This document shows positions 1-54,525 of a DNA stretch of 64,000 nt, one piece after another. The stretch is from a virus. The first letter of the stretch is position 1. Every line of letters begins with the position of its first letter. The notes under the pieces are model-generated. The model saw nothing but the letters and a program-made list of their open reading frames with translations, was not told the origin of the DNA and did no database searches. Position numbers and translations under genes: made by a program. The stretch lies in the IMG/VR virus record IMGVR_UViG_3300037231_000119, positions 32,001-96,000 of that record; one strand, 5' to 3'.

Positions 1-431
1 CCCTTATAGATACACTCCTTATGGTCCACTTCGGGCCGATAGCCTTTCTCGCATTTCTGCTTAAGTCTTTTCATTAGGGACCAATTAAACTCGGTCCTAA
101 AGTTGGTTGGTTTACCATAGATTCGGCCATTAATTAGGAGCTGTTCGATCAGGGGTACGTAATCATGTTGGCATAAGGCACACCTGAAGTCTTGTCTAAC
201 CAATAGGTAGAATAGGGACTCCTCGTGCTGGGGCCGGAAATGCGCTTTAGCACTAAGGGAGCAATCTCTACCACAGTACTTTTTACCCTTTACTTTCGTG
301 GAGTTGCACCATGCGCACATCTTGATGCCATCAATAACAATGGTCTTAATTTTATCTAGGGCCTCATATCGATTGGTGCAGCTTTTGATTAAATCTATGG
401 CGATGGGGTTGAGGGGAAGCTTGAGGATCAT
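1..431 (-). CDS. HNH endonuclease-like protein (partial, runs off window start)
   Basis: Manually translated open frame from ATG at 431: CAWC...YCGRDC...FRCALC...PEVDHKECIYKG (HNH motif start). Confidence 0.7.
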   Translation of the reverse strand, partial: MILKLPLNPIAIDLIKSCTNRYEALDKIKTIVIDGIKMCAWCNSTKVKGKKYCGRDCSLSAKAHFRPQHEESLFYLLVRQDFRCALCQHDYVPLIEQLLINGRIYGKPTNFRTEFNWSLMKRLKQKCEKGYRPEVDHKECIYK

Positions 432-518: not shown

Positions 519-2150
519 TTAAGTGATTACGTAGGCGGCAGAACCAACTTGAGAAGTAGCCTGACCAGCCAGAATAGCGATCGCCTGAACCGTCTCACTA
601 GCACTCACAGTGATGGGTCCAGTATAGAGAGTGCTATGGACAGTAGGAGTCGATCCATTGACGCTGAAGTAAATAGCCGCTCCAACGGTTCCACTACTGA
701 TCGTTACAGTTTGCGACGCAGGATAAGATCCGCCAAGAGGACTGAAGGCTGGACGAGCTACCTGAGAGGAAACAGGAAGCAATACGGTCGTAACTACCGC
801 ACCGTTGGAGCTGGAGAATGCTTCAGCCATAACTGGAGTCTCAGGTCCAGTAGAAGGCGCTACAACGGCCGTCGCCGCACTCAAAGTGACCGCACCCGTA
901 AGAGCAATCAGGGAACCGTTAACCGTTCCACCTTCAGTAACCGTGATACTATCTTCAGCAATGACATTACCGTAAAAAGTAGCGCCAGCGCTTGCCACAC
1001 TCTGATTGATGGTAGCTGAAGAGCCGACGATCCAATAGATACTTGTATTAGAAGCCGTTGCACCACCAGTGAACACCATAGTTGGAACGTCCGTACTACC
1101 AGAAGCCCCCGTTAACAACGTCGATGGTGAGTACAAGATATACGTACCGGCACCATTGAAGGTGAGAGTGCTATGCCCAGATGTCAACGACAATCCGAAA
1201 CTAGTGGCAGATTGATAGTTGCCAGGAGTTAGGGTTTGACCACCAAGTTCAGCGGCAATCGTGGTACCGGCCAACCCTAGGGTCTGTTTAGCTGTGAACG
1301 AAGCTTGAGCTGCAGTTTGAGCGCTGGACGCGACACCATCAGCAATGTGCTCTCCGCCAGAATAGACAGCTGGTGGAAAACCAGTAATGGATGTACCAGG
1401 ATAAATGCCCAGATCTCCAGTCAATACGCTGTTACCCGTATTTGTAACCGCTGAGGCTCCCAAGACAGCGAAGGCGCCCATCCCACCCGAAGTAGCATTC
1501 ATAGCTAATACCGTTTTAGCAGCTACCTGTGCGGCGGTATCTCCAGAAAGGATCGTAACCTCGATCCCCGTAAACCCAGCAGGGGCTGGATCCGTATTAG
1601 AACCACCGGAAACATTGTACCATACGTAGTACGAGTTAGAGTTTCCTCCGGTATAGATTTTAAAGTATTCGCCAGCACCGGTAGAAGCGAAGGCAGAACC
1701 CGCAGGGAACGTCATAACATCGTATTGTTGAAGCGCTGGCCCTACAAAGTTAACCGCAAATGAAAATCCCGCAGGCATCGTGACATTCATCGGACTTGAA
1801 TTTGCGAACCCATTAGGGTAAGCATTTGGAGCAACATTGGGGAGAAAGTTTGGATAGCCAGGAACCTGGACGCCGCCAGCTAGATTGGCCAAGACGGAAG
1901 CCAGAGCCGAATCGGGCATGCTGAAGCCATCTTTCAAAAACTGAGTATCGCGCACCGAAAGGCTATATGTACCCAAAATACAGGCCTGAATATTTGAGGC
2001 CACGTCTGGCTCCGTGGCATCACTCAATCGAGTAAAATCGATGGTGGAAAGGACGGTGCCGTTTTGGATGGCCGAAATCAGATTATTACCGGAAGTTGTA
2101 CTCCCCATACCGCTAATAAGATATGATTGTGCTTCTAAAGAAATTGACAT
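519..2150 (-). CDS. Putative virion protein with DUF3494 (ice-binding-like) domain and C-terminal chitobiase/FN3-associated domain
   Basis: GAFAVLGASAVTNTGNSVLTGDLGIYPGTSITGFPP...LGGQTLTPGNY...IYWIVGSSAT...FYGNVIA..SIT...VNGSLIALTGAVTL matches DUF3494. C-terminal PAFSPLGGSY...IYFSVNGSTPT...YTGPITV. Late-promoter motif at 2193. Confidence 0.85.
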   Translation of the reverse strand: MSISLEAQSYLISGMGSTTSGNNLISAIQNGTVLSTIDFTRLSDATEPDVASNIQACILGTYSLSVRDTQFLKDGFSMPDSALASVLANLAGGVQVPGYPNFLPNVAPNAYPNGFANSSPMNVTMPAGFSFAVNFVGPALQQYDVMTFPAGSAFASTGAGEYFKIYTGGNSNSYYVWYNVSGGSNTDPAPAGFTGIEVTILSGDTAAQVAAKTVLAMNATSGGMGAFAVLGASAVTNTGNSVLTGDLGIYPGTSITGFPPAVYSGGEHIADGVASSAQTAAQASFTAKQTLGLAGTTIAAELGGQTLTPGNYQSATSFGLSLTSGHSTLTFNGAGTYILYSPSTLLTGASGSTDVPTMVFTGGATASNTSIYWIVGSSATINQSVASAGATFYGNVIAEDSITVTEGGTVNGSLIALTGAVTLSAATAVVAPSTGPETPVMAEAFSSSNGAVVTTVLLPVSSQVARPAFSPLGGSYPASQTVTISSGTVGAAIYFSVNGSTPTVHSTLYTGPITVSASETVQAIAILAGQATSQVGSAAYVIT

Positions 2151-32391: not shown

Positions 32392-33486
32392 CTATTGGGA
32401 AAGAAAGTCGAGGCAGCGCTTAATGCAGGATTGCTTGTCTAAATCCCAGTCTTCTTCTTTGATGTGGAGGATTTTGATGCCAATTGAAAGGAAATAGAGG
32501 TCCTTATCTTCGTGGTAGGTTATAATAGCGGAGTCGGACCAAAGATTTTCGTTTTTGGCCTTTCTCATATATTCAAAACTATGATAATAGCTGCCATCGT
32601 ATTCTATGCTTTTACCCAGTTCAGGGACATATATGTCCAGCTCCAAGTACCTCTTTTTATTATTGGGATCATTATAAAATCTCTTTTTTATCGTACCCGG
32701 ATAAATTTCAGAAACTAAAGCAAAAATCTCTCTTTCGGCAATGGATGAACCTTTCAATGTACATTTAGGACACCTTCTTCCATGCCCCTTAAAATTATAG
32801 AAAGTTGTTTCGTACGGATGATTTTTGGGACAAATAAGAAGAATTTTACCTTGGGGATCATATTCTTCCGACTTTAACAAATATCCCTCTTTTTCAACAA
32901 ACTCTTTTATGGATGCCAGAGAATGGGGGCGATTATGAGCGCAGTGTTGACATCTCGCTTTTGCAGACAAAAATCCATTCATCGTAAGAGTTGTTTCGTG
33001 GCCAGCCGAACAAAAAACATTAAGTTTTTGATGGGCGTTTTTGTAATTTGTAGTAATTAGCCTATAACCTTCTTTACGTAAAATGTTAGAGATATCGTCA
33101 ATAGTATATCTTTTAATGCCTCGACATTCGTTACACCCAGAGCCATGGCCGATATAATTATCTAGAGAGGTAGACACTGCGTGCCCGTTTCTACATACCA
33201 TATTAAGTTTTTGTTTCATATTACTGTATGAGATATCAGATAGCGTATACCCATCTCGTTTTAGAATGGCCCTAACACTTTCGACTGTATAGGAAGCCTT
33301 ATCGAGGCAAGTAGGGCATCGACTTTTCTGACTTGTGAAGCAATTAAGTGTAACAAACCAAGGATGTCCCTTTGGACATACGACCTCCAACTTCTTCCCA
33401 CTCCTCACATATATCTTAGATATGAGAGTGTACCCCTCCATCTCAAATATATCTTTTACTGTTTCGTAGCTAAATTTTACCGTCAT
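32392..33486 (-). CDS. Homing-endonuclease-like protein (zinc-ribbon repeats plus Vsr-like nuclease)
   Basis: Four CPKGH..RCPxC-type repeats; ELDIYVPELGKSIEYDGSYYH. Confidence 0.85.
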   Translation of the reverse strand: MTVKFSYETVKDIFEMEGYTLISKIYVRSGKKLEVVCPKGHPWFVTLNCFTSQKSRCPTCLDKASYTVESVRAILKRDGYTLSDISYSNMKQKLNMVCRNGHAVSTSLDNYIGHGSGCNECRGIKRYTIDDISNILRKEGYRLITTNYKNAHQKLNVFCSAGHETTLTMNGFLSAKARCQHCAHNRPHSLASIKEFVEKEGYLLKSEEYDPQGKILLICPKNHPYETTFYNFKGHGRRCPKCTLKGSSIAEREIFALVSEIYPGTIKKRFYNDPNNKKRYLELDIYVPELGKSIEYDGSYYHSFEYMRKAKNENLWSDSAIITYHEDKDLYFLSIGIKILHIKEEDWDLDKQSCIKRCLDFLSQ

Positions 33487-33587: not shown

Positions 33588-34103
33588 TTAAGGAAGCGAA
33601 ACCGCCCCTGCTTCCGCATCGTTAGGCGAACTTTCGTCGGTGAGGGCTAATGCTTTGTATGTGATATTTATTTTAGATGTAGCTCGTGACTGGAAATTAT
33701 TGCTATTGGTATCAGGCAATGCACCGATAAGGGTAGCCATTGGAGGACCGGTAGGATTCTCACGATCAGCAACAGTAATCGTAACTGGACCTAGTCCAAG
33801 TAGTTGATTTAATGTAGGAAATTGACCCAAAGCTTTGACGCCAAATCCATATACACGGAATCCGGTGCATTGGACAGTAACCGCATTATAAGCGGTAAGT
33901 GTTATCTCATCAGCGGAATAGCGGCCCAAGAGATGAATATCTTCGCTCGAGATCGATTCACTAATACTGCACGAATCGAAAATACCGATTACGACTGGAG
34001 ATCCACCAGCGCCCTGAATACTTACGACGGATCTACCACCCGTAATAACTTTGGATGCAGCTGGACTAATTCCGCCTCTGCCACTATCATCGATAATTGC
34101 CAT
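33588..34103 (-). CDS. Tail tube protein
   Basis: 171 aa, immediately after sheath; IHLLGRY..EI pattern. Confidence 0.75.
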   Translation of the reverse strand: MAIIDDSGRGGISPAASKVITGGRSVVSIQGAGGSPVVIGIFDSCSISESISSEDIHLLGRYSADEITLTAYNAVTVQCTGFRVYGFGVKALGQFPTLNQLLGLGPVTITVADRENPTGPPMATLIGALPDTNSNNFQSRATSKINITYKALALTDESSPNDAEAGAVSLP

Positions 34104-34126: not shown

Positions 34127-36877
34127 TTAGCTTGCTGACTGTTGAACCGCACTGAGAGCCAAATTAATTGCTACAAAGTATATGCTCGTAGTCAATTTTG
34201 CTTCAACATTCACAGTCATAGTGGGTGCCGAAAGTGTAATGCTGGCATTTTTATATCCAAGAGGTGCATCATTCGACGTAGTCACCATCTTAAGCTTCTT
34301 GTAGAAGTCGAATCTCTGTTGCAAGAAGCTCAGAGCAGAAGCTGCAGTGACATCGGCCACAGATCTTCCAACAATTGCACTCTGAAAACTTTGCGCGAGG
34401 TCAAGAGCTAAAATGTCAGATAGATATACGGCCTGAATCGAATTATAAACGAAGCTCGAATTTAGGCCAAATGAGGTCTGATCGGATACCCACAGGATTC
34501 CACTTGTATTTTGAGTTAGAACCAAAAGGCCCGCAATGATCGCCTCACTCACATCCGCTGGATCACCAGAGTCATATCCAACTGGGTCCTGGAACGAAAC
34601 GATATTGGCCAAGTGGTTACAAATAGATTTGTAGAAACCGCCGCACTGTGTGCCAGCCGCTACTGCCGCCGCATACCAAGGCAAGAACAACTGATTCACA
34701 CCAGCCGAATTTACCTGAGTCACTTGCTGACACGTCAGAGAGCAACGATAGCTTGCCAAGCTCTGAGCTTGTGCCCTAGCATTAGCAAACGTGTCATTGA
34801 TGGACAGAATCGCCATACGATTATGTTTCAGGGTAGGGGTTGAGAACTGAATGCAATGTGACTTAAGAAGCTCATTGATGGCGTCGATCGTATAAGTCGA
34901 ACTTGGATCCGTATTACCGGCCGTAATATCTTTACTCGCATCCTGAGAGAACAAAGGAACAATGATATTGACCTGGATACCGCCCATTTGAGCGATCGCA
35001 TTTACAATGTCATTCGCAGACGTTCCACCCAAAGCGCCACCAGTCAAGAACACCATAGAGCCTGGTACTGGAAGACCGGAAGTAGCCGTAGGAGTAAAAC
35101 CAACCGCCGTAGAAGTATTCAATTGATTCTGGAATGTAAACAGGGAATTCTTCACACGTCCTGGTTGATCTCCGTCCGTAGAAGCAATCCCGATAGCCGT
35201 AACATGATCCAGAGAAGAGGTTGGATTCGAAGTAGCAGAGCTTCCAACCGTTGCCGTATACCCTGGCTGCGTGTTAATGAATGCCGCCAACTGGCCAACC
35301 GTAGTATACTGAGAAAGAACGATTGAGAGATTAGCGCCAGTTCCACCCGTGACGGTCGTTGTCAGCATGGTTGAGTTAATGGTCATCGTTCCGGTCGTTC
35401 CAGCGTACCCAACACTCAAGGCAATAGCTGGAGCAATATTGAACGTCTCATTAATCTGCGCAGTCGTATTGATAATCGAGACTTCAACCGCTGGCTCTTC
35501 GCTAGAAGTAATAAGTCCAGCCGTCATACCAAGAGCGGCCAAATCACCAGGAGTAGAATCGATCAACTCAAAGCTTTGTCCAAATCCACTCGCGTATGGT
35601 GTACCTTCAGCAGCCATCGTGAACACCAGAGTATTCATCGCAGACCCAGCAGATGCCGTAATACCAGCAGGGAGAAGAAGATTCAGCTCCGTAATCAACT
35701 CAGCAATATTGGAATGCGCAGCTCCGACGATAGTTCCAGGTGGAAAGCCAGTGACCGAATTGGTAGGGCTTGATCCCACGTTTCCAGTTACAACCGAAGA
35801 CCCAGTATTGGTAACCCCGGAAGAACCCAAAAGACCGAATGAACCAGCATAGTTAAGAAGAGGGGAATTCTGAGCATTGACAACCGTTGCGGCACTGAGA
35901 GTAACTGCGCCCGTAAGAGCAATCAGGGAACCGTTAACAGTTCCACCCAAAGTATCTGTAATGCTATCTTCCGCAATGACGTTACCAGCGAAGGTTCCGC
36001 TAAAGCCAGAATTGATCGTAGCCGAAGATCCAACTACCCAGTAGATGTTAGCAGCTGTCGCACCACCGGTCAGCGTCATGGTCGGGATACCACCAGAACC
36101 GGTAACCAGAGTGCTAGAGGTCTTGATAACATACACCCCAGCGCCATTGAAGGTTAGGGTTCCAGCTCCAGAAGCTGCCAAGCTAGCTGCGCCCGTGCTA
36201 TAAACACCGGGAGTCAACGTTTGGCCGTCGAGAGTCGCAGAGATCGGAGTAGCGGTCATACCGGTCAGGCTAGTATAGGCAGACATGGCGGCAGATTGAC
36301 CAGCGGCCGATTCAGTAGGAGTAACAGGGCTAGAAGATCCGGAACTGAGTGTAATTACGTGAGATGCTCCACCGTTCACACGAATAGAGAACGTATCGCC
36401 ATCCAGAGCGGTACCAAAAGCAGGGACCGTATTCCCAGTAACTTGTGGAGAAACTTCGTTACTGATGGAGGTAACCGTGTAGTTGAAGAGATTTCCAGCT
36501 ACACCGAAGTTAAGCGCCGTGAGAGTTCCATAACCAGGAACGGAAGCGGTCGCCTGTGTACCCTCGTTGGTTTTGAGGATATAGATGGAAGTAGCCGTTC
36601 CGGAAATGTCTGGATCGTTACTAGGAGCCGAAAGAGCAGCAAAGGCGTCAACGATTGGACCCGAGCCGTAAATAGCTCTTACTTGGTTGTAAGCGCTAGG
36701 CCCGAAGAAGTTGTTAGCCAACGTAACTTCAGAGTAGTTAGGGCCTTGAGCAGCTTCACCCATGATAAGAACAACCCCTGAACTCGCAAGTCCGGAAGCT
36801 GTTGAAATTACAGTGGTATTTACGTAGGCGCCAGGGATTGGGGTAGAAATCCAGGGAGTATTTAAAAATTGTGCCAT
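34127..36877 (-). CDS. Tail sheath protein with inserted circularly permuted DUF3494 domain
   Basis: N-terminal IPGAYV...LIMGEA.QGP...YGSGPIVDA; C-terminal sheath core; insert at about aa 185-388. Confidence 0.9.
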   Translation of the reverse strand: MAQFLNTPWISTPIPGAYVNTTVISTASGLASSGVVLIMGEAAQGPNYSEVTLANNFFGPSAYNQVRAIYGSGPIVDAFAALSAPSNDPDISGTATSIYILKTNEGTQATASVPGYGTLTALNFGVAGNLFNYTVTSISNEVSPQVTGNTVPAFGTALDGDTFSIRVNGGASHVITLSSGSSSPVTPTESAAGQSAAMSAYTSLTGMTATPISATLDGQTLTPGVYSTGAASLAASGAGTLTFNGAGVYVIKTSSTLVTGSGGIPTMTLTGGATAANIYWVVGSSATINSGFSGTFAGNVIAEDSITDTLGGTVNGSLIALTGAVTLSAATVVNAQNSPLLNYAGSFGLLGSSGVTNTGSSVVTGNVGSSPTNSVTGFPPGTIVGAAHSNIAELITELNLLLPAGITASAGSAMNTLVFTMAAEGTPYASGFGQSFELIDSTPGDLAALGMTAGLITSSEEPAVEVSIINTTAQINETFNIAPAIALSVGYAGTTGTMTINSTMLTTTVTGGTGANLSIVLSQYTTVGQLAAFINTQPGYTATVGSSATSNPTSSLDHVTAIGIASTDGDQPGRVKNSLFTFQNQLNTSTAVGFTPTATSGLPVPGSMVFLTGGALGGTSANDIVNAIAQMGGIQVNIIVPLFSQDASKDITAGNTDPSSTYTIDAINELLKSHCIQFSTPTLKHNRMAILSINDTFANARAQAQSLASYRCSLTCQQVTQVNSAGVNQLFLPWYAAAVAAGTQCGGFYKSICNHLANIVSFQDPVGYDSGDPADVSEAIIAGLLVLTQNTSGILWVSDQTSFGLNSSFVYNSIQAVYLSDILALDLAQSFQSAIVGRSVADVTAASALSFLQQRFDFYKKLKMVTTSNDAPLGYKNASITLSAPTMTVNVEAKLTTSIYFVAINLALSAVQQSAS

Positions 36878-36890
36878 ATACTATCTCCTA

Positions 36891-39148: not shown

Positions 39149-39964
39149 TTACCCCTTATATTTCTGCAAGATCGCTGGAAGGACACTATTATTCCATTCA
39201 TTTTGGGCCCACTCTGCGGCATCTGGGAAAAATCCCTTAGCGTTTTGAGCCGGATATTGCCACTTCCCATCATCGCCTTCTATGACAGTTCTGAAGGTAG
39301 TCATTACTTTCTTAGCGTTACCATTCTTATTCAAAACCTGATATATGTGGAGCCTTGCGAGTTGCTCGGTATTTCCACGCCCCGGTATCTTACTTGGAAT
39401 GTCAAAAACATGTAAGGGGAGAGGATGTCCATTAGGCCCCATTTTACTTATTCTCGGGCTCCCATTAGAATCCTTTTCAATTCCGCTCCACGAAAGCTTT
39501 TGACCTTTTAGAAAACCTTTGATACTTCCAATAAGCTCCTCATTCTTAGCAAGAGTCTTAATATTCAAACTGTCGGATTCTTTACCTTGTGGCATTGGAA
39601 TAATTTTGTAATGCTTGCCTTTATTAGGGCCATTCTTAACAGTCTCAGAATCTTTCAAGAGACCGTATTCTCCAGGCTTACCCTTCATATCCCACGGCTT
39701 ACCTTCTTCGATAGGAACTGCCGGTTCATTTAACGTGATCTCCCAAAGAAAGTCGCTGATTTGTACGGCTTGGCTTAGACTAGCTAGATATTTTTTTGCA
39801 ATCTGAGTATTTAGCTTTTGTCCCACCTCTTTTACCATGTTGGCGTGGGTAGCTTCCGCAAGCCCCTTAATACCTTTTTGAACATCCTTCGCGATTTCTT
39901 TTGCAAAGTTATTCAGGTATTGGGTTAAAGAGGAGATGTCTAGGTTGACTTTGATATCGCTCAT
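39149..39964 (-). CDS. Putative neck/tail completion protein
   Basis: IEEG..WDMK...LL...IIP...TFRTV...W.YP pattern. Confidence 0.65.
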   Translation of the reverse strand: MSDIKVNLDISSLTQYLNNFAKEIAKDVQKGIKGLAEATHANMVKEVGQKLNTQIAKKYLASLSQAVQISDFLWEITLNEPAVPIEEGKPWDMKGKPGEYGLLKDSETVKNGPNKGKHYKIIPMPQGKESDSLNIKTLAKNEELIGSIKGFLKGQKLSWSGIEKDSNGSPRISKMGPNGHPLPLHVFDIPSKIPGRGNTEQLARLHIYQVLNKNGNAKKVMTTFRTVIEGDDGKWQYPAQNAKGFFPDAAEWAQNEWNNSVLPAILQKYKG

Positions 39965-41151
39965 AGAATACCCATCATCTTCAATTTAGGCTCATTCCAA
40001 AGCTCAGCATTAGGAAATTGTGTAAGAAACCAATCCCATTTAATTTGGGAATGAGGTCTCATATACCCCTTAATTTCGACCCAAGTATTAGGCTCTATAA
40101 GAAATAGATCTGGGCGATATGTCTTAGCTGTCCCAGATTTGGTAAAAAGGGGCGTCGTGAATGTTTGGGGTTGCCACAAAAAATCAATCTTTTTGGAATT
40201 AAGGTAATCCACTACTTTGGGTTCGTAACCGGCCTGACAAATAAGTTCCTCCCCAGTTTTCCAGTGTATTTTTAGGGTAGTATTTTGTAGTTTTTTAGCG
40301 TGCGTTAATGCATATGAGGGATCCTGAGATAGATGTTCTACCCCATACCTCTCCAGATTAGTTTTCCTTATCTTATCTAGTTTTCTTTTGGGATGACCTA
40401 TAAATTCCGCTCTAGGGAGTGACCAGAATTCACCGTGGTCCTTGTCAACGAAACGTGCCGTTTCATTCAGCCCCGTGTAGGTAGTTTCGTCTAAAATAAA
40501 TTCGTCCCCGAACTTCTTTAATTTTAATCTTACCTCCTCAATATTCAATTTCTTACCCTCATTTGCCCTATCGGGATGCCCATGGCCATCCATAACTCTA
40601 GCTGGGGTAGAAATCCATTCTCCGTAATCTACATCCATAAATGAACATTCGCTACGAACTTTCGTATGAGTAGAATCTATTATAGAGACAGTATTGCCAT
40701 GTTTCTCAAAAATGATTTTTTTGATATTTCTCAAGGGGGTTTTTGTTCTGTCATACCCTCTTTGAGGATGACCTCTCCCCCTCAAAACACCAATAACTGT
40801 CGCGGGCCATTCCCCATAGTCGCTATCCACAAAAATAGCCTTCTTGTTTACATTTACATAAGATGTTCGCACAATACGTACCGTATCACCATGTACGCCC
40901 TGAATGCGCTTCTCGATATCATCCACAGAAAGTCTTTTCCCGCTAAACGCATACCTTTTTCTCTTTGGATGGCCCTTGCCGTCCCTATAAAGCGCTGCCG
41001 GAATTGCAGTGAAATTACCAAAAGCCTCATCTATAAAGACAGCGGTAGTTTTTACGTCTACGTAGGAGGATTCTTCCATCCCAATAACGTATGGAAGTCT
41101 TCCCTGGACTCTTTCTAGAACTTCCTTACATGTAAGCTTTTTAATACCCAT
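39961..41151 (-). CDS. Homing-endonuclease-like protein (repeats plus PD-(D/E)XK)
   Basis: Four D..YGEW..P......GHP repeats; TNLERYGV; YRPDLFL...VEIKG. Confidence 0.85.
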   Translation of the reverse strand: MGIKKLTCKEVLERVQGRLPYVIGMEESSYVDVKTTAVFIDEAFGNFTAIPAALYRDGKGHPKRKRYAFSGKRLSVDDIEKRIQGVHGDTVRIVRTSYVNVNKKAIFVDSDYGEWPATVIGVLRGRGHPQRGYDRTKTPLRNIKKIIFEKHGNTVSIIDSTHTKVRSECSFMDVDYGEWISTPARVMDGHGHPDRANEGKKLNIEEVRLKLKKFGDEFILDETTYTGLNETARFVDKDHGEFWSLPRAEFIGHPKRKLDKIRKTNLERYGVEHLSQDPSYALTHAKKLQNTTLKIHWKTGEELICQAGYEPKVVDYLNSKKIDFLWQPQTFTTPLFTKSGTAKTYRPDLFLIEPNTWVEIKGYMRPHSQIKWDWFLTQFPNAELWNEPKLKMMGIL

Positions 41152-41187: not shown

Positions 41188-41415
41188 TTAATTCTTTGGG
41201 GGTTTTACTGGAGCGCCTGATTGAGGGTCCTTCACTCTGCCTTCCAACATGGAGACGAACCTGATATCTTCTGGATCGTTCGGATTTACCCATTTCATTT
41301 GCGACTTACTTGATAATCCGCCCGGTGGGATAGGGGTTTTTGCAACATGGACAGTAGTATGTTTGGAGGGTAATTTAGCTGCTGAGGGTAGTCCTGCTAC
41401 CCCACCGCTTTTGGG
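41188..41415 (-). other. -1 programmed frameshift extension of the 792-aa protein
   Basis: Slippery C-CCA-AAA (41415-41409); hairpin GGGTAG-CAGGA-CTACCC 6 nt downstream; 75-codon open -1 frame. Confidence 0.7.
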
Positions 41416-43775
41416 TCACTCTGACCCTCCGCTTTCGGTCCATCTGGCGCACCGGATTGTGTAGCTTCCGCGACCGCACCCGGATCCTGAGGTGCATCTG
41501 AACTCATCTTAGGCTCGAGACCTAAGAGTTTGCACAGCTCGATCATGGCCTTAAGCATCTGGATCGTGCTTTGGTAAAGTCCGGGACTTTGATCTTTAGC
41601 CTCTTCTAGGAATGCCTTATTTGCCTTAAATCCCTGTAACGTTTGGGATACTTGATCTATAACCTGCGCCCTCTTTTGTTCCTGCGCGTGGTCATCTAAA
41701 CCACCCTGGAGAACTCCAGCCATATCTGGTTCATCCTGGCCATCTTCAGCCATCGGATCTTGTCCCGATTCTTGTCCCAATTCTCCATTTTGTCCCGATT
41801 CCTGAGCCATCTGATCCGCATCGCCCTGTGTACCTTGATAGTCTGGAGAGGCCATACGATCGATCGGACCTTCTTCTCCGCCTTGACTTCCAGGGCAATC
41901 TGGACAGTTACATTCATGGTCGCTATTCTGCATGTCCTTTTCAGCATCTGAAACGTTATTCTTTTGCTTATCGCCAAAGTTTTCGGGGACAGAGGCCCCC
42001 TCTTCCATCTCGTCGCCTTGAGGAAGTTCAGTATTGTCAATCTTTTTAGCTTCAGCCTCAGGAGTTTGGTCACCCTCTCCTGGCTTCTGATCCAATAGGT
42101 CTAAAACTTCTTCAGCCGTTTCATGTCCTTGTAGATTGGGATCTTCTTGGCCAGTTTGATCTGGCTGCTCTTCGATAGCGTCCCCATACATCTCTTGGCA
42201 CTGCGGACAGTTGTCTGGTTGCTCGGCAGACATATCTTGGACACCCAAAGCGGTCGCATCATGTTTTGGGCAATTCGGGCAGTTACAAATATGGTCTACG
42301 TCTTGTCCTTCGGGAGTCCCAGCTTGAGCTTCTCCAACGGTTTCGGATTCACAATAAGGGCAACCATCTACGCCGCCAGCCTCATCGGGAGTATCTTGGC
42401 AGTATGGGCAGTCATCCTCTTCCGAACTTTCCTGACAATATGGACAATCATCCGTATCTATCCCACCAGTATTTTGCTGGGAAGCATCGTATTCCTTACA
42501 AGCATCACAATCATGCATCCCAGCCGAACCATCCGCATTTTCTTGAGCATCCAAATCTTGGCAATAAGCACAGTCGTCCGTACGGTTATCTTCTTGATCA
42601 GGATTCTGAAAACCCTTGTCTTCTTTGTCGGCAGCTCCGTTATGGAAGCCCTCTTCATGCTTATGAAGATTATGGGTATGTTCAGACTTATACATCTCGG
42701 GCTTAGACATCCCCGCCTTGGAATCAGATCGTAGTTCTGATGCTGGATCGCTGTGTTGGTACGCAGCTCGACTATGTTGGTCAGCTATTTTAGAATGGAT
42801 ATCTCTATGTGCGGGATCCTTAGCTCTTTCTTTGCTACCGAACGCTCCTTGTTTTCCTTGATGAAAACGCCCCAGATCATTGTGAATTTTGGCCGCGTCG
42901 GCATGATCTTGCGGAGTGTATTTTAAAGTATTGGCAAACGCTTCAGATCGAAAATGAACCGGTTTCTTAGATTGGGTATGCCCCACAATATCGGAATCCT
43001 TGGGATGAACTGGTGCCGCATCCGAATCTGATTTATGAAGACCGCATGTATGTTCATACTTTACCATAGGCGCTGTAGTAGGTGCTGGGACTACGGTTAC
43101 CACGTGCCTCATTATGGCGCCATGTTTCTGATCTCTTTTATCCGCAGCACTATGTAAGCCCTTTTTACTTCCCACCGTTCCTTTATAGTGAAGAGTGCCG
43201 GTAGTGGGGCTATGAGAAGCTAAATGATATTTTTCGCCAGGCTTTAGATCTGGGGCGCCATAGAGACCGTGTTCACCTTCAGCTTTATGTAAATCGCACT
43301 TCATATTTTCGCTCTTTTCCAGATAAGCATCCGCAAGCTTCATCTCTTCTTGATTGGCAGTTTTAGCCTTAACTTTTTCGCGCATTTTATCAATGCCCTT
43401 TTCTACTTTAGGTCCATACCAAACCGTCTTATTCTTACCTGTAGCTTTGGCGTAGAGGAGACTTCTACCCGCTTCAGACAAGTCCTTACCAATACCAACT
43501 GAAATATTTAAGTCGGTGGCCTCGTAGTACTTACTTCTTAGCTCTTCCACATCTTTAGCGGCTTCAAACGGGATGCGAAAACTCCCCTCATCTCCACCAC
43601 CAGAAATTCTTTTACCACCACGCTCTGATACCCACTGATTAACGATCTCGTGACCCAAATCGATCTTGGCCGAGATATTGTGGAGAGCCTTCTCATCATT
43701 TGCAATGATGGCCTTACCGCACTGGCGACCAGCACCGTCCGCATCATAAGTAAGTCTGAGCATGGGCTTACTCAT
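41397..43775 (-). CDS. Head-module polyprotein: mCpol-like cyclase, His-rich modules, acidic CxxC repeats
   Basis: YDADGAG...GG.RISGGGDEG...ISVGIG..LSEA...L..AKATGKN; LEKSE/LHKAE/LHKSD/MYKSE motifs. Confidence 0.75.
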   Translation of the reverse strand: MSKPMLRLTYDADGAGRQCGKAIIANDEKALHNISAKIDLGHEIVNQWVSERGGKRISGGGDEGSFRIPFEAAKDVEELRSKYYEATDLNISVGIGKDLSEAGRSLLYAKATGKNKTVWYGPKVEKGIDKMREKVKAKTANQEEMKLADAYLEKSENMKCDLHKAEGEHGLYGAPDLKPGEKYHLASHSPTTGTLHYKGTVGSKKGLHSAADKRDQKHGAIMRHVVTVVPAPTTAPMVKYEHTCGLHKSDSDAAPVHPKDSDIVGHTQSKKPVHFRSEAFANTLKYTPQDHADAAKIHNDLGRFHQGKQGAFGSKERAKDPAHRDIHSKIADQHSRAAYQHSDPASELRSDSKAGMSKPEMYKSEHTHNLHKHEEGFHNGAADKEDKGFQNPDQEDNRTDDCAYCQDLDAQENADGSAGMHDCDACKEYDASQQNTGGIDTDDCPYCQESSEEDDCPYCQDTPDEAGGVDGCPYCESETVGEAQAGTPEGQDVDHICNCPNCPKHDATALGVQDMSAEQPDNCPQCQEMYGDAIEEQPDQTGQEDPNLQGHETAEEVLDLLDQKPGEGDQTPEAEAKKIDNTELPQGDEMEEGASVPENFGDKQKNNVSDAEKDMQNSDHECNCPDCPGSQGGEEGPIDRMASPDYQGTQGDADQMAQESGQNGELGQESGQDPMAEDGQDEPDMAGVLQGGLDDHAQEQKRAQVIDQVSQTLQGFKANKAFLEEAKDQSPGLYQSTIQMLKAMIELCKLLGLEPKMSSDAPQDPGAVAEATQSGAPDGPKAEGQSDPKAVG

Positions 43776-53121: not shown

Positions 53122-54525
53122 TTAGGTAAACAATTGTCCTTGCAAATTCTCGACGATTGCATTTTTCCGTGGCGCCTCTACTGCGAGCGTAGTCCACCTG
53201 TAAAAAGCATTGTTAATGCTCAATTGAGAGATACCGAGCTGAAGCTTTTTAAAGCCACTCAGTTCGCCCATGTGTCCCGTATCCTTCTGAATCAGGAAAC
53301 CCGTGAGAGCGCCAGGAGCCATGTTGCCAAGGTCCGTGAACGTCGCACCACTTGGGGCCGCCGCGATATTCCCGATGAAGAGAACACCCGGAGAAACCGT
53401 AGCTGCCACACCGGCCGCCGTACGATACACACGGTAGTAGAGAGCGCCAGCAGCCGCACCGATCGTCAGAGTGACCTTGTTACCAGCGAGAGCAGGCGTA
53501 ACGGTCGAAACGGCCGAGAGAGGCCCTTCACCGTAGGCGTTAACCGCAGCAACAGCGTACGTATACGCAGCAGCCTGAAGGAGAGACCCAGCGGCCCCGC
53601 CGTCAGCAGAAGCCAACGTAGGCTGAGCAGGAGCGCCCTGAATCTGGACGTTGATCGGATTGATCTGTTTACGCAAATATTGCGACATTTCCATACTGAC
53701 GGCACCTGAGCTAGTCCACTGCGTGCGAAGATGCGCGCCAGTAGCTTCCTGAGGTGAACCAGCGAGAACGATACGTTCCTTAGCCTGGCTGATCTTGTTA
53801 TAAGCAGAGAGGCTGGAAGGATCCAACATCAGCTTGTCCGCGCGACCCATGTTAAGGGCAGAACGAACCGAGATATCTTCGATCAGGGACTGCGTAAGAG
53901 CAGCGCCACCAGCCGAGAACACAACCGTTGCGCTCGAACCGTACGAAGCGAACATCAGATCCTGTCCATTGCGCTCGAAATCCGAGGCGCGAACCTGGAG
54001 ATCCCAACCACGCATATTGGCGAGAGCAGGAACTAGGGCAGGATTGCCATCGAAGACTCCGTTGTTTGAGAAATCAGAGTTACCAGAGAACAGGTCGAAC
54101 TCGATGTCCTGAGCAAGGTTAAGGGCCGCATCCTGAGCTTGGCGCTCTTCAGCAGTCACCTTGTCAAACGTTTCAACAGCGTTCGCAACGAGCGAATGTT
54201 CGCGTGTATCGACGTAGTACGCCATTGGGACCACGAGACGAGCAGCTTGGCCAGTCTTTTTCGCGCCCAGCATACCTTCGTAAGCCGCTGATCCGCCGAA
54301 ACGGCCGACAGACAATTTACGATTGTACTGATAGAGATTCGACTTCGTATTACGAACATCGAGCATCTTCTGCAGTTTGATGGTCTCTTCGGCAGCCGTG
54401 ACATTGATCATCACTGGAGCCAGATCTTCGATTTGATAAGCAGCGCCCTGTACGAGGGTAGAAGGGGCGGCATTATATGAACCCGCTTCGAGTGCCTTCA
54501 TCAGAGTTTGGAGTTGGTCTAACAT
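53122..54525 (-). CDS. Major capsid protein (SPO1/Herelleviridae-like)
   Basis: MKALEAG...GAAYQIEDL...IEFDLFSG; strong codon bias; follows scaffold. Confidence 0.9.
   Translation of the reverse strand: MLDQLQTLMKALEAGSYNAAPSTLVQGAAYQIEDLAPVMINVTAAEETIKLQKMLDVRNTKSNLYQYNRKLSVGRFGGSAAYEGMLGAKKTGQAARLVVPMAYYVDTREHSLVANAVETFDKVTAEERQAQDAALNLAQDIEFDLFSGNSDFSNNGVFDGNPALVPALANMRGWDLQVRASDFERNGQDLMFASYGSSATVVFSAGGAALTQSLIEDISVRSALNMGRADKLMLDPSSLSAYNKISQAKERIVLAGSPQEATGAHLRTQWTSSGAVSMEMSQYLRKQINPINVQIQGAPAQPTLASADGGAAGSLLQAAAYTYAVAAVNAYGEGPLSAVSTVTPALAGNKVTLTIGAAAGALYYRVYRTAAGVAATVSPGVLFIGNIAAAPSGATFTDLGNMAPGALTGFLIQKDTGHMGELSGFKKLQLGISQLSINNAFYRWTTLAVEAPRKNAIVENLQGQLFT

What the first reader, a model, noticed from the sequence alone, without database searches (positions are those of the whole stretch)
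35714..36325. Circularly permuted ice-binding (DUF3494) domain inserted inside the tail sheath
Seen: sheath aa ~185-388 run helix (SAAGQSAAMSAY), LDGQTLTPGVY, IYWVVGSSAT, VNGSLIALTGAVTL, and only then AGSFGLLGSSGVTNTGSSVVTGNVGSSPTNSVTGFPPG. That last segment is N-terminal in canonical DUF3494, as in 519..2150 of this same window. Known: in DUF3494 the N-terminal coil packs beside the C-terminal coil of a discontinuous solenoid, so this permutation would make the solenoid sequential. Inference: every sheath subunit displays the domain, giving a helical multivalent ice- or surface-binding array on a contractile tail. I know of no description of this.
Basis: partly seen in the sequence, partly recalled or inferred. 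Interest (0 to 1): 0.85.

Follow-up and report, generated by a model that had tools for sequence, protein, structure and literature searches.

The report
Re-ordered ice-binding fold on phage sheath
The tail sheath protein of a large uncultured phage carries, spliced into an outer loop, a complete but re-ordered copy of the "ice-binding protein" fold; I found no description of this re-ordering in the papers searched, it probably studs the tail with sticky domains, and what they bind (ice or something else) is untested.

Summary
Observation confirmed. Window 34127..36877 (-) encodes a 916-aa contractile tail sheath of a 162-kb phage distantly related to Myxococcus phage Mx1. Residues ~181-388 are a complete DUF3494 (PF11999) domain in circularly permuted order: long helix, coils b2-b6, a new short linker, then coil b1, which is N-terminal in canonical proteins such as the window's own 543-aa protein.

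- **A clean insertion.** Close relatives of ~715 aa lack exactly this segment. The flanks are sheath sequence, not DUF3494 (hhalign probability 0.1%).
- **Predicted fold.** AlphaFold gives pLDDT 96. It matches solved ice-binding proteins at Z 16-18 over model residues 1-157. Ordinary continuous beta-helices align over residues 23-209, so b1 follows b6.
- **A shared cassette.** The same module, with the same linker length and a conserved or related motif, sits in other proteins: two capsid-adjacent podovirus proteins, a bacterial (Saccharimonadia) protein, and the orthologue of the window's canonical 543-aa protein, where it is nested in a loop.
- **Accessory but conserved.** Presence on the sheath tree needs at least 8 changes, yet the insert is as conserved as the sheath core.

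Binding to ice or any other ligand is untested. No paper describing the permutation was found. This scan has already noted the same feature in sheaths of at least three other genomes, one confirmed by a follow-up. New variant of a known kind.

The parts
34127..36877 (-). Tail sheath gene, 916 aa (P0001)
   Evidence: PHROG 279 'tail sheath' over aa 489-912, E 3.6e-22. 40% identity to the annotated Mx1 tail sheath. The AF2 model matches solved sheaths: phage 812 at Z 24.9 with 405 residues aligned, T4 gp18 at Z 19.7.
36885..36889 (-). Shine-Dalgarno AGGAG, 7 nt before the ATG at 36877
   Evidence: Read directly from the sequence.
36338..36529 (-). Host-domain flank before the insert (aa 117-180). 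Sheath sequence, ending in a beta-strand.
   Evidence: Present and conserved in insert-less sheaths. No similarity to DUF3494 by hhalign, probability 0.1%.
35714..36337 (-). The whole inserted, circularly permuted DUF3494 domain (aa 181-388)
   Evidence: Absent from ~715-aa relatives that are 70-80% identical elsewhere. AF2 of this part alone gives pLDDT 96 and pTM 0.92.
36263..36319 (-). Long alpha-helix of DUF3494 (aa 187-205), now at the start of the module
   Evidence: Helix in both AF2 models. Aligns with the helix of solved ice-binding proteins.
35876..36262 (-). Coils b2-b6 of the solenoid (aa 206-334)
   Evidence: 63% identity to canonical P0002 292-431. With the helix, Z 16-18 and rmsd 1.6 A over 146-148 residues to the C-terminal two thirds of solved DUF3494 chains.
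35840..35875 (-). New b6-to-b1 junction (aa 335-346, motif NAQNSPLL), the join that exists only in the permuted form
   Evidence: Same normalised length (4) in all permuted modules, in sheaths and in other host proteins, with a conserved or related motif. Tandem canonical repeats have gaps of 3-650 residues, mostly 8 or more.
35714..35839 (-). Coil b1 segment (aa 347-388), N-terminal in canonical DUF3494 and last here
   Evidence: 55% identity, E 1e-14, to P0002 225-268. pLDDT 95-98. Continuous beta-helices align through it, up to model residue 209.
35438..35713 (-). Host-domain flank after the insert (aa 389-480). Starts with the sheath's own helix 391-401.
   Evidence: Conserved in insert-less sheaths, directly following the strand of aa 172-176 across a loop of a few residues.
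34142..35413 (-). Conserved sheath core (aa 489-912)
   Evidence: PHROG 279 match. 40% identity to the Mx1 sheath over aa 455-916.
33588..34103 (-). 171-aa gene directly downstream, probably the tail tube
   Evidence: Position only. The equivalent 149-aa gene of a relative hits PF26461 Phi812_tail_tube. There was no PHROG or Pfam hit for the window's own copy.
519..2150 (-). 543-aa protein (P0002) with DUF3494 in canonical order, the internal comparator
   Evidence: PF11999 over aa 229-427 to profile 1-206, plus CHB_HEX_C_1 and Fn3_assoc. Coil b1 at 225-268 lies before helix plus coils at 274-432.

Best explanation
The sheath protein of this Mx1-related myovirus carries one complete DUF3494 (IBP-1 fold) beta-solenoid. 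It is nested in a tight strand-to-helix loop of a non-core domain of the sheath. The domain is a circular permutant. The canonical chain was opened between coil b1 and the long helix, and the old C-terminus (end of b6) was joined to the old N-terminus (start of b1) by a short new linker. The sequence order is therefore helix, b2-b6, b1, and the solenoid is predicted to be continuous. The two new termini were neighbours in the canonical chain, so the module can enter and leave a host loop at one point. It behaves as a portable cassette. The same module, with the same linker length and a conserved or related motif, is nested in other proteins, most of them on phage contigs. It is an accessory part of the sheath: close relatives lack it and its distribution on the sheath tree is patchy. 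Yet it is kept under purifying selection. Inferred, not shown: the host domain faces outwards, so each subunit displays one module and the tail carries a helical array of order 10^2 copies. I also infer that the array acts as a low-affinity, high-avidity adhesin for a surface (ice, extracellular polysaccharide or a cell surface) and plays no part in contraction.
For: - **Permuted order.** Two significant matches in swapped order to the window's canonical paralogue, two Pfam hits in swapped order, and each segment found exactly once.
- **Clean insertion.** Relatives of ~715 aa lack aa ~181-388 (217 against 10-13 residues between shared anchors). The flanks are unrelated to DUF3494.
- **Fold.** pLDDT 96 and pTM 0.92. 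Z 16-18 and rmsd 1.6 A over 146-148 residues, with model 1..157 aligned to the C-terminal part of solved ice-binding proteins right up to their last residue. Continuous beta-helices (tapirin 6n2b, pectate lyase 1ee6) align over model 23..209. Two ESM Atlas clusters match the whole model at TM 0.85 and 0.84 with 201 and 195 residues aligned, whereas canonical clusters stop at residue ~158 with TM 0.66.
- **The protein is a sheath**.
- **Cassette.** The b6-to-b1 linker has the same length in sheaths, P0122 (two copies), P0127, P0129, P0130 and P0157, with a conserved or related motif. A single clade of all permuted modules is not rejected (AU p = 0.35).
- **Natural comparison.** P0127 is the orthologue of the window's P0002. 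It has the permuted module nested between residues that are adjacent in P0002, while P0002 has the canonical domain appended after that intact small domain.
- **Other hosts.** P0130 lies between the major capsid and adaptor genes of a podovirus. P0122 lies directly after a major head protein gene.
- **Accessory but selected.** At least 8 changes of presence on the sheath tree, 7 of them forced by supported branches. Mean pairwise identity is 0.67-0.69 in the coils and 0.53 in the helix of the insert, against 0.66-0.71 in the sheath core.
- **Not an artefact.** Insert-bearing sheaths form over 20 protein clusters. One of them is identical in four independent assemblies, and there are 22 IMG/VR loci.
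Against: - All three-dimensional evidence is prediction. I could not read model coordinates, so the stacking of b1 on b6 and the closeness of the termini are inferred from alignment ranges and from the canonical structure.
- AlphaFold2 can be over-confident on beta-solenoids (title and abstract of PMC11795689, listed).
- The orientation of the insert relative to the sheath lattice is uncertain (pTM of the full model is 0.55). Outward exposure rests on general knowledge of sheath architecture.
- No ligand is known. [quoted passage not shown]
- The canonical domain's own termini should also lie close together, since b1 and b6 are adjacent coils and the new link is short. The permutation may therefore be a historical accident and not an adaptation for insertion.
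- The domain tree scatters the permuted modules among canonical ones (at least 4 changes forced). A single origin is merely not rejected.
Confidence: 0.7

Rival explanations
1. The array really binds ice. The module is a true ice-binding protein, and the coated tail anchors virions to ice or to brine-vein walls, or protects them during freeze-thaw. This is a special case of the adhesin reading.
For: All top structural matches are proven ice-binding proteins. A recombinant non-canonical DUF3494 protein binds ice, and most such proteins come from icy habitats (PMC11645318). From memory only, and not checked: several of the IMG sample numbers carrying relatives may be from subarctic peat or glacier forefields.
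Against: DUF3494 ice-binding sites have no consensus motif (PMC7966756), so sequence cannot decide. Bacterial DUF3494 proteins occur in ice-free habitats too. The habitat of this phage is unknown to me.
Confidence: 0.25
2. The insert is structural. It makes contacts between sheath subunits that stabilise the extended or contracted lattice, and it binds nothing outside the virion.
For: It is as conserved as the sheath core. From general knowledge, extra outer domains of some sheaths contact their neighbours.
Against: Very close relatives do without it: P0016 sits beside P0007 and P0013 on the tree at branch lengths of 0.03-0.13. The same cassette sits in unrelated proteins with different lattices or none, such as capsid-adjacent proteins, a fibre-like protein and a secreted bacterial protein.
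Confidence: 0.12
3. It is a neutral or selfish passenger. The cassette spreads by recombination into tolerant loops and does nothing useful.
For: Patchy distribution. The same loop holds a different ~70-aa module in P0031. Homing-endonuclease-like genes lie on both sides of the sheath and tube region.
Against: There is no decay. More than 20 diverged copies are all intact, with near-constant length (198-211 aa) and with conservation equal to the core. The module is also kept in sheaths only 38% identical to this one.
Confidence: 0.1
4. It is not a permutation. Instead it is the remnant of a tandem pair: a canonical domain whose degenerate b1 is aa 137-180, followed by a partial second copy (b1 plus helix, aa 347-405).
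For: Pfam's alignments run into these flanks: aa 137-332 to profile 6-207, and aa 350-424 to profile 2-68.
Against: Both flanks are present and contiguous in insert-less sheaths that have no PF11999 hit. hhalign of that host domain against canonical DUF3494 gives probability 0.1%. BLASTP of aa 130-215 against the canonical N-terminal part gives E 3.8. My b1 HMM finds only aa 344-389.
Confidence: 0.02
5. It is an assembly chimera that joins a sheath gene to a DUF3494 gene.
For: None found. Reads could not be inspected.
Against: Both junctions are in frame. The same architecture occurs in over 20 diverged protein clusters from JGI, ENA, NCBI and Logan. An identical 917-aa protein occurs in four independent assemblies. 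There are 22 IMG/VR loci.
Confidence: 0.01

Closest known systems
Single-domain DUF3494 / type-1 ice-binding proteins with solved structures: AnpIBP (7BWX, 7BWY), EfcIBP (6EIO), TisAFP (3VN3, 7DC5), ColAFP (3WP9), FfIBP (4NU2)
   Same: Same family by sequence (PF11999 at 99.9 bits). Same predicted triangular right-handed solenoid with a long helix alongside (Z 16-18, rmsd 1.6 A, 24-38% identity).
   Different: The coil order along the chain differs. The known proteins run b1, helix, b2-b6, an order called 'unique for DUF3494' (PMC7966756). Even the non-canonical variants described in 2024 keep it (PMC11645318). Here the order is helix, b2-b6, b1. The known proteins are free or end-on domains, whereas this one is nested inside another protein's loop. 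Ice binding is shown for them and untested here.
IBPv, the two-domain tandem DUF3494 antifreeze protein (PDB 5UYT; PMC5673226)
   Same: Read across the domain boundary, a tandem pair contains the same sequence order: helix and coils of copy 1, then b1 of copy 2. Such a pair is the textbook precursor of a circular permutant. Many tandem proteins match the insert end to end in sequence.
   Different: In the tandem protein, b1 of copy 2 does not pack on copy 1. Foldseek aligns 228 columns at rmsd 17.8 A. Tandem linkers are mostly 8 or more residues and vary in length, against a fixed short linker here.
Contractile tail sheaths with extra outer domains: phage 812 (8Q1I, 5LI2), T4 gp18 (3J2M), Mx1 sheath (OR576727)
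   Same: Same core fold and same gene position next to the tube. From general knowledge, the extra domains emerge from the N-terminal half of the protein.
   Different: None of the solved sheaths returned by the search, nor Mx1's sheath or genome, contains a DUF3494 domain.
Ig-like and other decoration domains displayed on phage capsids and tails, for example T4 Hoc (from my own knowledge, not tested here)
   Same: These are accessory, dispensable and exchangeable surface domains on major virion proteins. They are thought to give weak multivalent adherence.
   Different: The fold differs: a beta-solenoid and not an Ig sandwich. This module is nested by way of a circular permutation and not appended.

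Membership tests
DUF3494 / Ice_binding (PF11999), IBP-1 fold | Sequence match to the family profile above the curated cut-off | tested here: met
   99.9 bits against a cut-off of 28.7, E 2e-28. 63% and 55% identity to the two parts of the window's canonical member.
DUF3494 / Ice_binding (PF11999), IBP-1 fold | Right-handed triangular beta-solenoid of about six coils with a long alpha-helix packed along one face | tested here: met
   Prediction only. pLDDT 96. Z 16-18 and rmsd 1.6 A over 146-148 residues to more than 20 solved members.
DUF3494 / Ice_binding (PF11999), IBP-1 fold | Discontinuous chain order: b1, then the helix, then b2-b6 stacking back towards b1 | tested here: not met
   The order here is helix, b2-b6, b1. 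The spatial order is predicted to be kept, but the chain order is permuted. I therefore file it as a permuted variant of the family, not a canonical member.
DUF3494 / Ice_binding (PF11999), IBP-1 fold | Ice-binding activity (thermal hysteresis, recrystallisation inhibition, ice shaping) | not testable with these tools
   There is no sequence motif for the ice-binding site (PMC7966756). Members occur in ice-free habitats too (PMC11645318).
Contractile tail sheath protein | Homology to the conserved sheath core | tested here: met
   PHROG 279, E 3.6e-22. Mx1 tail sheath at 40% identity over 475 residues. Structural Z 20-25 to sheaths of phages, pyocins and injection systems.
Contractile tail sheath protein | Gene next to the tail tube gene in a virion module | tested here: inconclusive
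   A 171-aa gene follows directly but has no family hit of its own. The equivalent gene of a relative hits Phi812_tail_tube. The major head protein gene is in the window at 53122..54525.
Natural circular permutant (by definition) | Every segment of the parent domain present once, in cyclically shifted order, with no leftover duplicate | tested here: met
   The segment HMMs each hit once, B at 189-338 and then A at 343-388. The flanks are unrelated to DUF3494.
Intein or other self-removing insert | Hint-domain fold and splice-junction residues | tested here: not met
   The whole insert is accounted for by the DUF3494 fold, and Pfam finds nothing else. Read directly from the sequence, the C-terminal junction reads His-Ser and lacks the usual Asn. 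The N-terminal junction residue was not examined.

The most novel reading that the evidence does not exclude
The sheath is a virion-borne ice adhesin. A helical lattice of order 10^2 ice-binding solenoids would let the phage bind ice or brine-vein walls with very high avidity, or survive freeze-thaw. The permuted cassette would then be the general way in which phages of cold soils and waters graft ice binding onto capsids, sheaths and fibres. An ordered array of this kind might also organise water differently from a free ice-binding protein.
Probability: 0.2. Interest if true: 0.85.

Novelty: new variant of a known kind. Interest (0 to 1): 0.62.

Why it matters
- **For ice-binding protein research.** The odd discontinuous coil order has been treated as a hallmark of DUF3494, kept even in the non-canonical variants described in 2024. 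A natural permutant with a continuous solenoid shows that the fold does not depend on that chain order. It also offers a compact form whose two ends meet, which can be grafted into loops of other proteins.
- **For phage biology.** It adds a non-Ig, beta-solenoid decoration module that moves between sheath, capsid-adjacent and fibre-like proteins. It also gives a natural set of near-isogenic sheaths with and without the module in which to test what such decorations do.
- **For the question of what DUF3494 binds.** Its original substrate is still unclear, and phage particles that display it in hundreds of copies are a convenient high-avidity probe.
- **For annotation.** Pfam's alignment over-extends into host sequence and hides the permutation.

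Tried and rejected
- **Tandem-remnant reading:** rejected.
- **Mis-assembly:** rejected on independent assemblies.
- **Profile of the sheath family against PDB sequences:** no hit at E 0.01 or better. The sheath identity rests on PHROG, Mx1 and fold comparison instead.
- **BFVD viral structures:** only giant-virus (Hyperionvirus) DUF3494 proteins turned up, and no phage match.
- **Habitat:** six sample and run identifiers were found in no paper, so the habitat stays unknown.
- **DUF3494 in the genomes of insert-less relatives:** their records (L013, L014) are not held. Only Mx1 could be searched, and it has none.
- **PF26696:** this family, named for an Atlas cluster, is not in the local Pfam copy.
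- **Separate origins of the sheath inserts:** the helix-plus-coils tree scatters the permuted modules among canonical ones. The AU test does not reject one clade for the sheath inserts (p = 0.34) or for all permuted modules (p = 0.35), so neither polyphyly nor a single origin is shown.
- **Intein reading:** rejected. There is no Hint fold and the C-terminal junction residues are wrong.
- **No complex prediction was run,** because no specific protein-protein binding is claimed.
Full report
**What is there**

The window is bases 32001-96000 of a 162,446-bp IMG/VR virus record with 43.6% G+C. The ORF at 34127..36877 (-) is intact and codes for 916 aa, with AGGAG seven bases before its ATG.

It is a contractile tail sheath. 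PHROG 279 'tail sheath' matches aa 489-912. The only cultured relative found is Myxococcus phage Mx1, whose annotated tail sheath is 40% identical over the C-terminal 475 residues. An AlphaFold2 model of the whole protein (mean pLDDT 80) matches solved sheaths of phage 812 (Z 24.9, 405 residues aligned), phiCD508, T4 gp18 and R-type pyocins. Its residues 178-338 separately match ice-binding proteins at Z about 18.

The comparator is the window's own canonical DUF3494 protein (519..2150 -, 543 aa). Sheath 206-335 matches its residues 292-431 (63% identity, E 2e-37). Sheath 345-388 matches its residues 225-268 (55% identity, E 1e-14). The order is therefore swapped.

I built two HMMs from the sheath family: A for coil b1, and B for the helix plus coils b2-b6. 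In the sheath each occurs once, B at 189-338 and then A at 343-388. The genome's three other DUF3494 domains are all A then B. One is in the 543-aa protein and two are in a 2621-aa protein outside the window.

**It is an insertion, not a remnant of a tandem pair**

A word-indexed search found 364 relatives. More than 20 clusters of about 915-990 aa carry PF11999, and many clusters of about 715 aa do not, although they are 70-80% identical elsewhere. In the alignments, insert-less proteins pass from a beta-strand to the sheath's own helix across a loop of a few residues. Insert-bearing proteins have about 205 extra residues at that point: 217 against 10-13 residues between shared anchors.

The ends of the Pfam hits (aa 137-180 and 389-424) lie in sequence that insert-less sheaths also have. 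hhalign of that host domain against a canonical DUF3494 profile gives a probability of 0.1%. The insert is therefore aa ~181-388, window 35714..36337.

**Fold**

The insert alone, modelled with 60 aligned sequences, gives pLDDT 96 and pTM 0.92.

- All top Foldseek hits in the PDB are DUF3494 ice-binding proteins, but only about 145 columns align.
- VIA-align gives Z 16-18 and rmsd 1.6 A over 146-148 residues. Model residues 1..157 align with the C-terminal part of each chain up to its last residue, for example 7BWY 47..203 of 203. What is left over in the model (b1) and in the chains (their N-terminal b1) is complementary, as a permutation requires.
- Ordinary continuous beta-helices (tapirin 6N2B, pectate lyase 1EE6) align over model 23..209. 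The b1 coil therefore continues the solenoid after b6.
- In the tandem protein IBPv, the sequence-equivalent stretch superposes at rmsd 17.8 A.
- Two ESM Atlas clusters match the whole model (TM 0.85 and 0.84, with 201 and 195 residues aligned). They are mostly from Bacteroidota, and one also carries a 'PTL_trimer' family. Canonical clusters stop at residue ~158 with TM 0.66.

The canonical coil order b1-b6-b5-b4-b3-b2, with the helix linking b1 to b2, is documented for TisAFP7 and called unique to DUF3494 (PMC7966756). All of the structural evidence here is prediction. I could not read model coordinates, and AlphaFold2 is known to be over-confident on some solenoids (PMC11795689).

**A portable cassette**

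An exhaustive HMMER search with the insert found 7,366 proteins. Among the best 150, most are A-B or tandem A-B-A-B. Several non-sheath proteins are B-A:

- **P0122** (602 aa, two permuted copies) lies directly after a major head protein gene.
- **P0130** (349 aa) lies between the SU10-type capsid and adaptor genes of a podovirus.
- **P0157** is an 'ice-binding family protein' from a Saccharimonadia MAG.
- **P0127** (523 aa) is described below.

Every permuted module, in sheaths and elsewhere, has the same normalised b6-to-b1 gap of 4 residues. The motif NAQ-x-x-PLL is conserved in the sheaths, P0127 and P0130, and is recognisable but diverged in P0122, P0129 and P0157. Tandem canonical repeats have gaps of 3-650 residues, mostly 8 or more. 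A tree of the helix-plus-coils part scatters the permuted modules among canonical ones. AU tests do not reject one clade for the sheath inserts (p = 0.34) or for all permuted modules (p = 0.35). One origin is therefore possible but not shown.

**A natural comparison**

P0127 comes from the same contig as an insert-bearing sheath. It is the orthologue of the window's canonical 543-aa protein: it has the same N-terminal 180 residues and the same C-terminal CHB_HEX_C_1 and Fn3_assoc domains. In the window's protein, a small domain is intact and the canonical DUF3494 follows it end-on. In P0127, the permuted module is nested inside that small domain, between residues that are adjacent in the window's protein. 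The second half of the split domain realigns at 55% identity, E 1e-12.

In this lineage, then, the canonical order goes with end-on fusion and the permuted order with nesting in a loop. The new termini were peptide-bonded neighbours in the canonical chain, so they meet at one point. Whether that is the reason for the permutation is inference. The canonical termini should also lie close together, since b1 and b6 are adjacent coils.

**Accessory but selected**

On a sheath tree built without the insert columns, presence of the insert needs at least 8 changes, 7 of them forced by supported branches. An insert-less protein (P0016) is nested beside insert-bearing ones at branch lengths of 0.03-0.13. 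Sheaths only 38% identical to this one carry the module at the same place. In one relative the same loop holds an unrelated ~70-aa module.

Among 22 insert-bearing sheaths, mean pairwise identity is 0.67-0.69 in the insert's coils and 0.53 in its helix, against 0.66-0.71 in the core. Insert length is nearly constant at 198-211 aa. This fits an exchangeable, dispensable part that is nevertheless functional.

**Not an artefact**

The architecture recurs in many diverged clusters from four data sources. It recurs as an identical 917-aa protein in four independent assemblies and in 22 IMG/VR loci. Base composition shows no sharp break at the junctions.

**Function**

Nothing tested here shows what the module binds. 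My best reading is a multivalent adhesin displayed on the outer sheath surface. The reasons are that the module is nested in a non-core domain, that the same cassette sits on capsid-adjacent and fibre-like proteins, and that the genome has three further DUF3494 domains in other large proteins.

Ice is one candidate ligand. [quoted passage not shown] Mx1 itself has no PF11999 match. The habitat of this phage is unknown to me.

**Literature and earlier notes**

No paper in the held library combines DUF3494 with circular permutation, or ice binding with tail sheath. The only paper that holds both DUF3494 and phage is unrelated by its title and abstract, and a broader search found nothing on a permuted form. 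The 2024 survey of non-canonical DUF3494 proteins states that all of them keep the discontinuous order.

This scan has itself noted the same permuted insert in sheaths of at least three other genomes, one of which a follow-up confirmed, and permuted modules on phage fibre tips. Those are unchecked AI notes. My results agree with them, and the Atlas clusters fit the fibre-tip reports.

**Verdict**

This is a real, well-supported, circularly permuted DUF3494 cassette nested in a phage tail sheath. It is a new variant of a known fold and a new kind of sheath decoration. Its ligand and its benefit to the phage are unknown.

Noticed in passing
window 519..2150 (-) and protein P0127 (locus L053 6001-7572): Orthologous ~530-aa proteins in related phages differ in how they carry DUF3494. 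The window's copy has the canonical domain appended after an intact small domain. P0127 has the permuted module nested inside that small domain.
   Followed up: yes
alignment A1: relatives P0014, P0064, P0019 and P0031 (sheath positions equivalent to window aa ~115, ~181 and ~420): An unrelated ~70-aa beta-rich module with no Pfam hit is inserted at three different sites of related sheaths. In P0031 it sits in the same loop that holds DUF3494 here, so these outer loops are hot spots for domain insertion.
   Followed up: partly
L010 8001-9050 and L012 8001-9809: Permuted DUF3494 modules occur in proteins encoded directly after the major capsid gene of two unrelated podovirus-like contigs. One protein has a single copy and the other has two. 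Their position suggests head decoration or head-fibre proteins.
   Followed up: partly
window 32392..33486 (-) and 39961..41151 (-): Two HNH or homing-endonuclease-like genes (phrog_559, phrog_681) lie on either side of the sheath and tube region. The first sits downstream of the tube gene, where the one relative checked (P0009's contig) has a 120-aa gene. They might promote the local recombination that shuffles sheath alleles.
   Followed up: no
window 41397..43775 (-): A 792-aa protein in the virion module starts with a minimal CRISPR polymerase (mCpol, PF18182) domain, E 7.7e-11.
   Followed up: no
G000:C1:3710-11572 (-), outside the window: A 2621-aa protein carries two canonical-order DUF3494 domains about 870 residues apart. 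Together with the 543-aa protein and the sheath, this gives the genome four DUF3494 domains.
   Followed up: partly
window 35606..36469 (sheath aa 137-424): Annotation pitfall. Pfam's PF11999 alignments run about 45 residues into sheath sequence on one side of the insert and about 35 on the other. A routine domain table then suggests a nearly full-length canonical domain plus a fragment, and hides the permutation.
   Followed up: yes
proteins P0131 and P0132 (2288 and 1782 aa): These giant proteins have one canonical DUF3494 domain followed by a second in B-then-A order with a different, longer linker (9 residues). This may be an independent permutation.
   Followed up: no
OR576727.2 (Myxococcus phage Mx1): The only cultured relative has a 953-aa sheath whose N-terminal half is unrelated to this one. 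It has no PF11999 match anywhere in its genome.
   Followed up: partly
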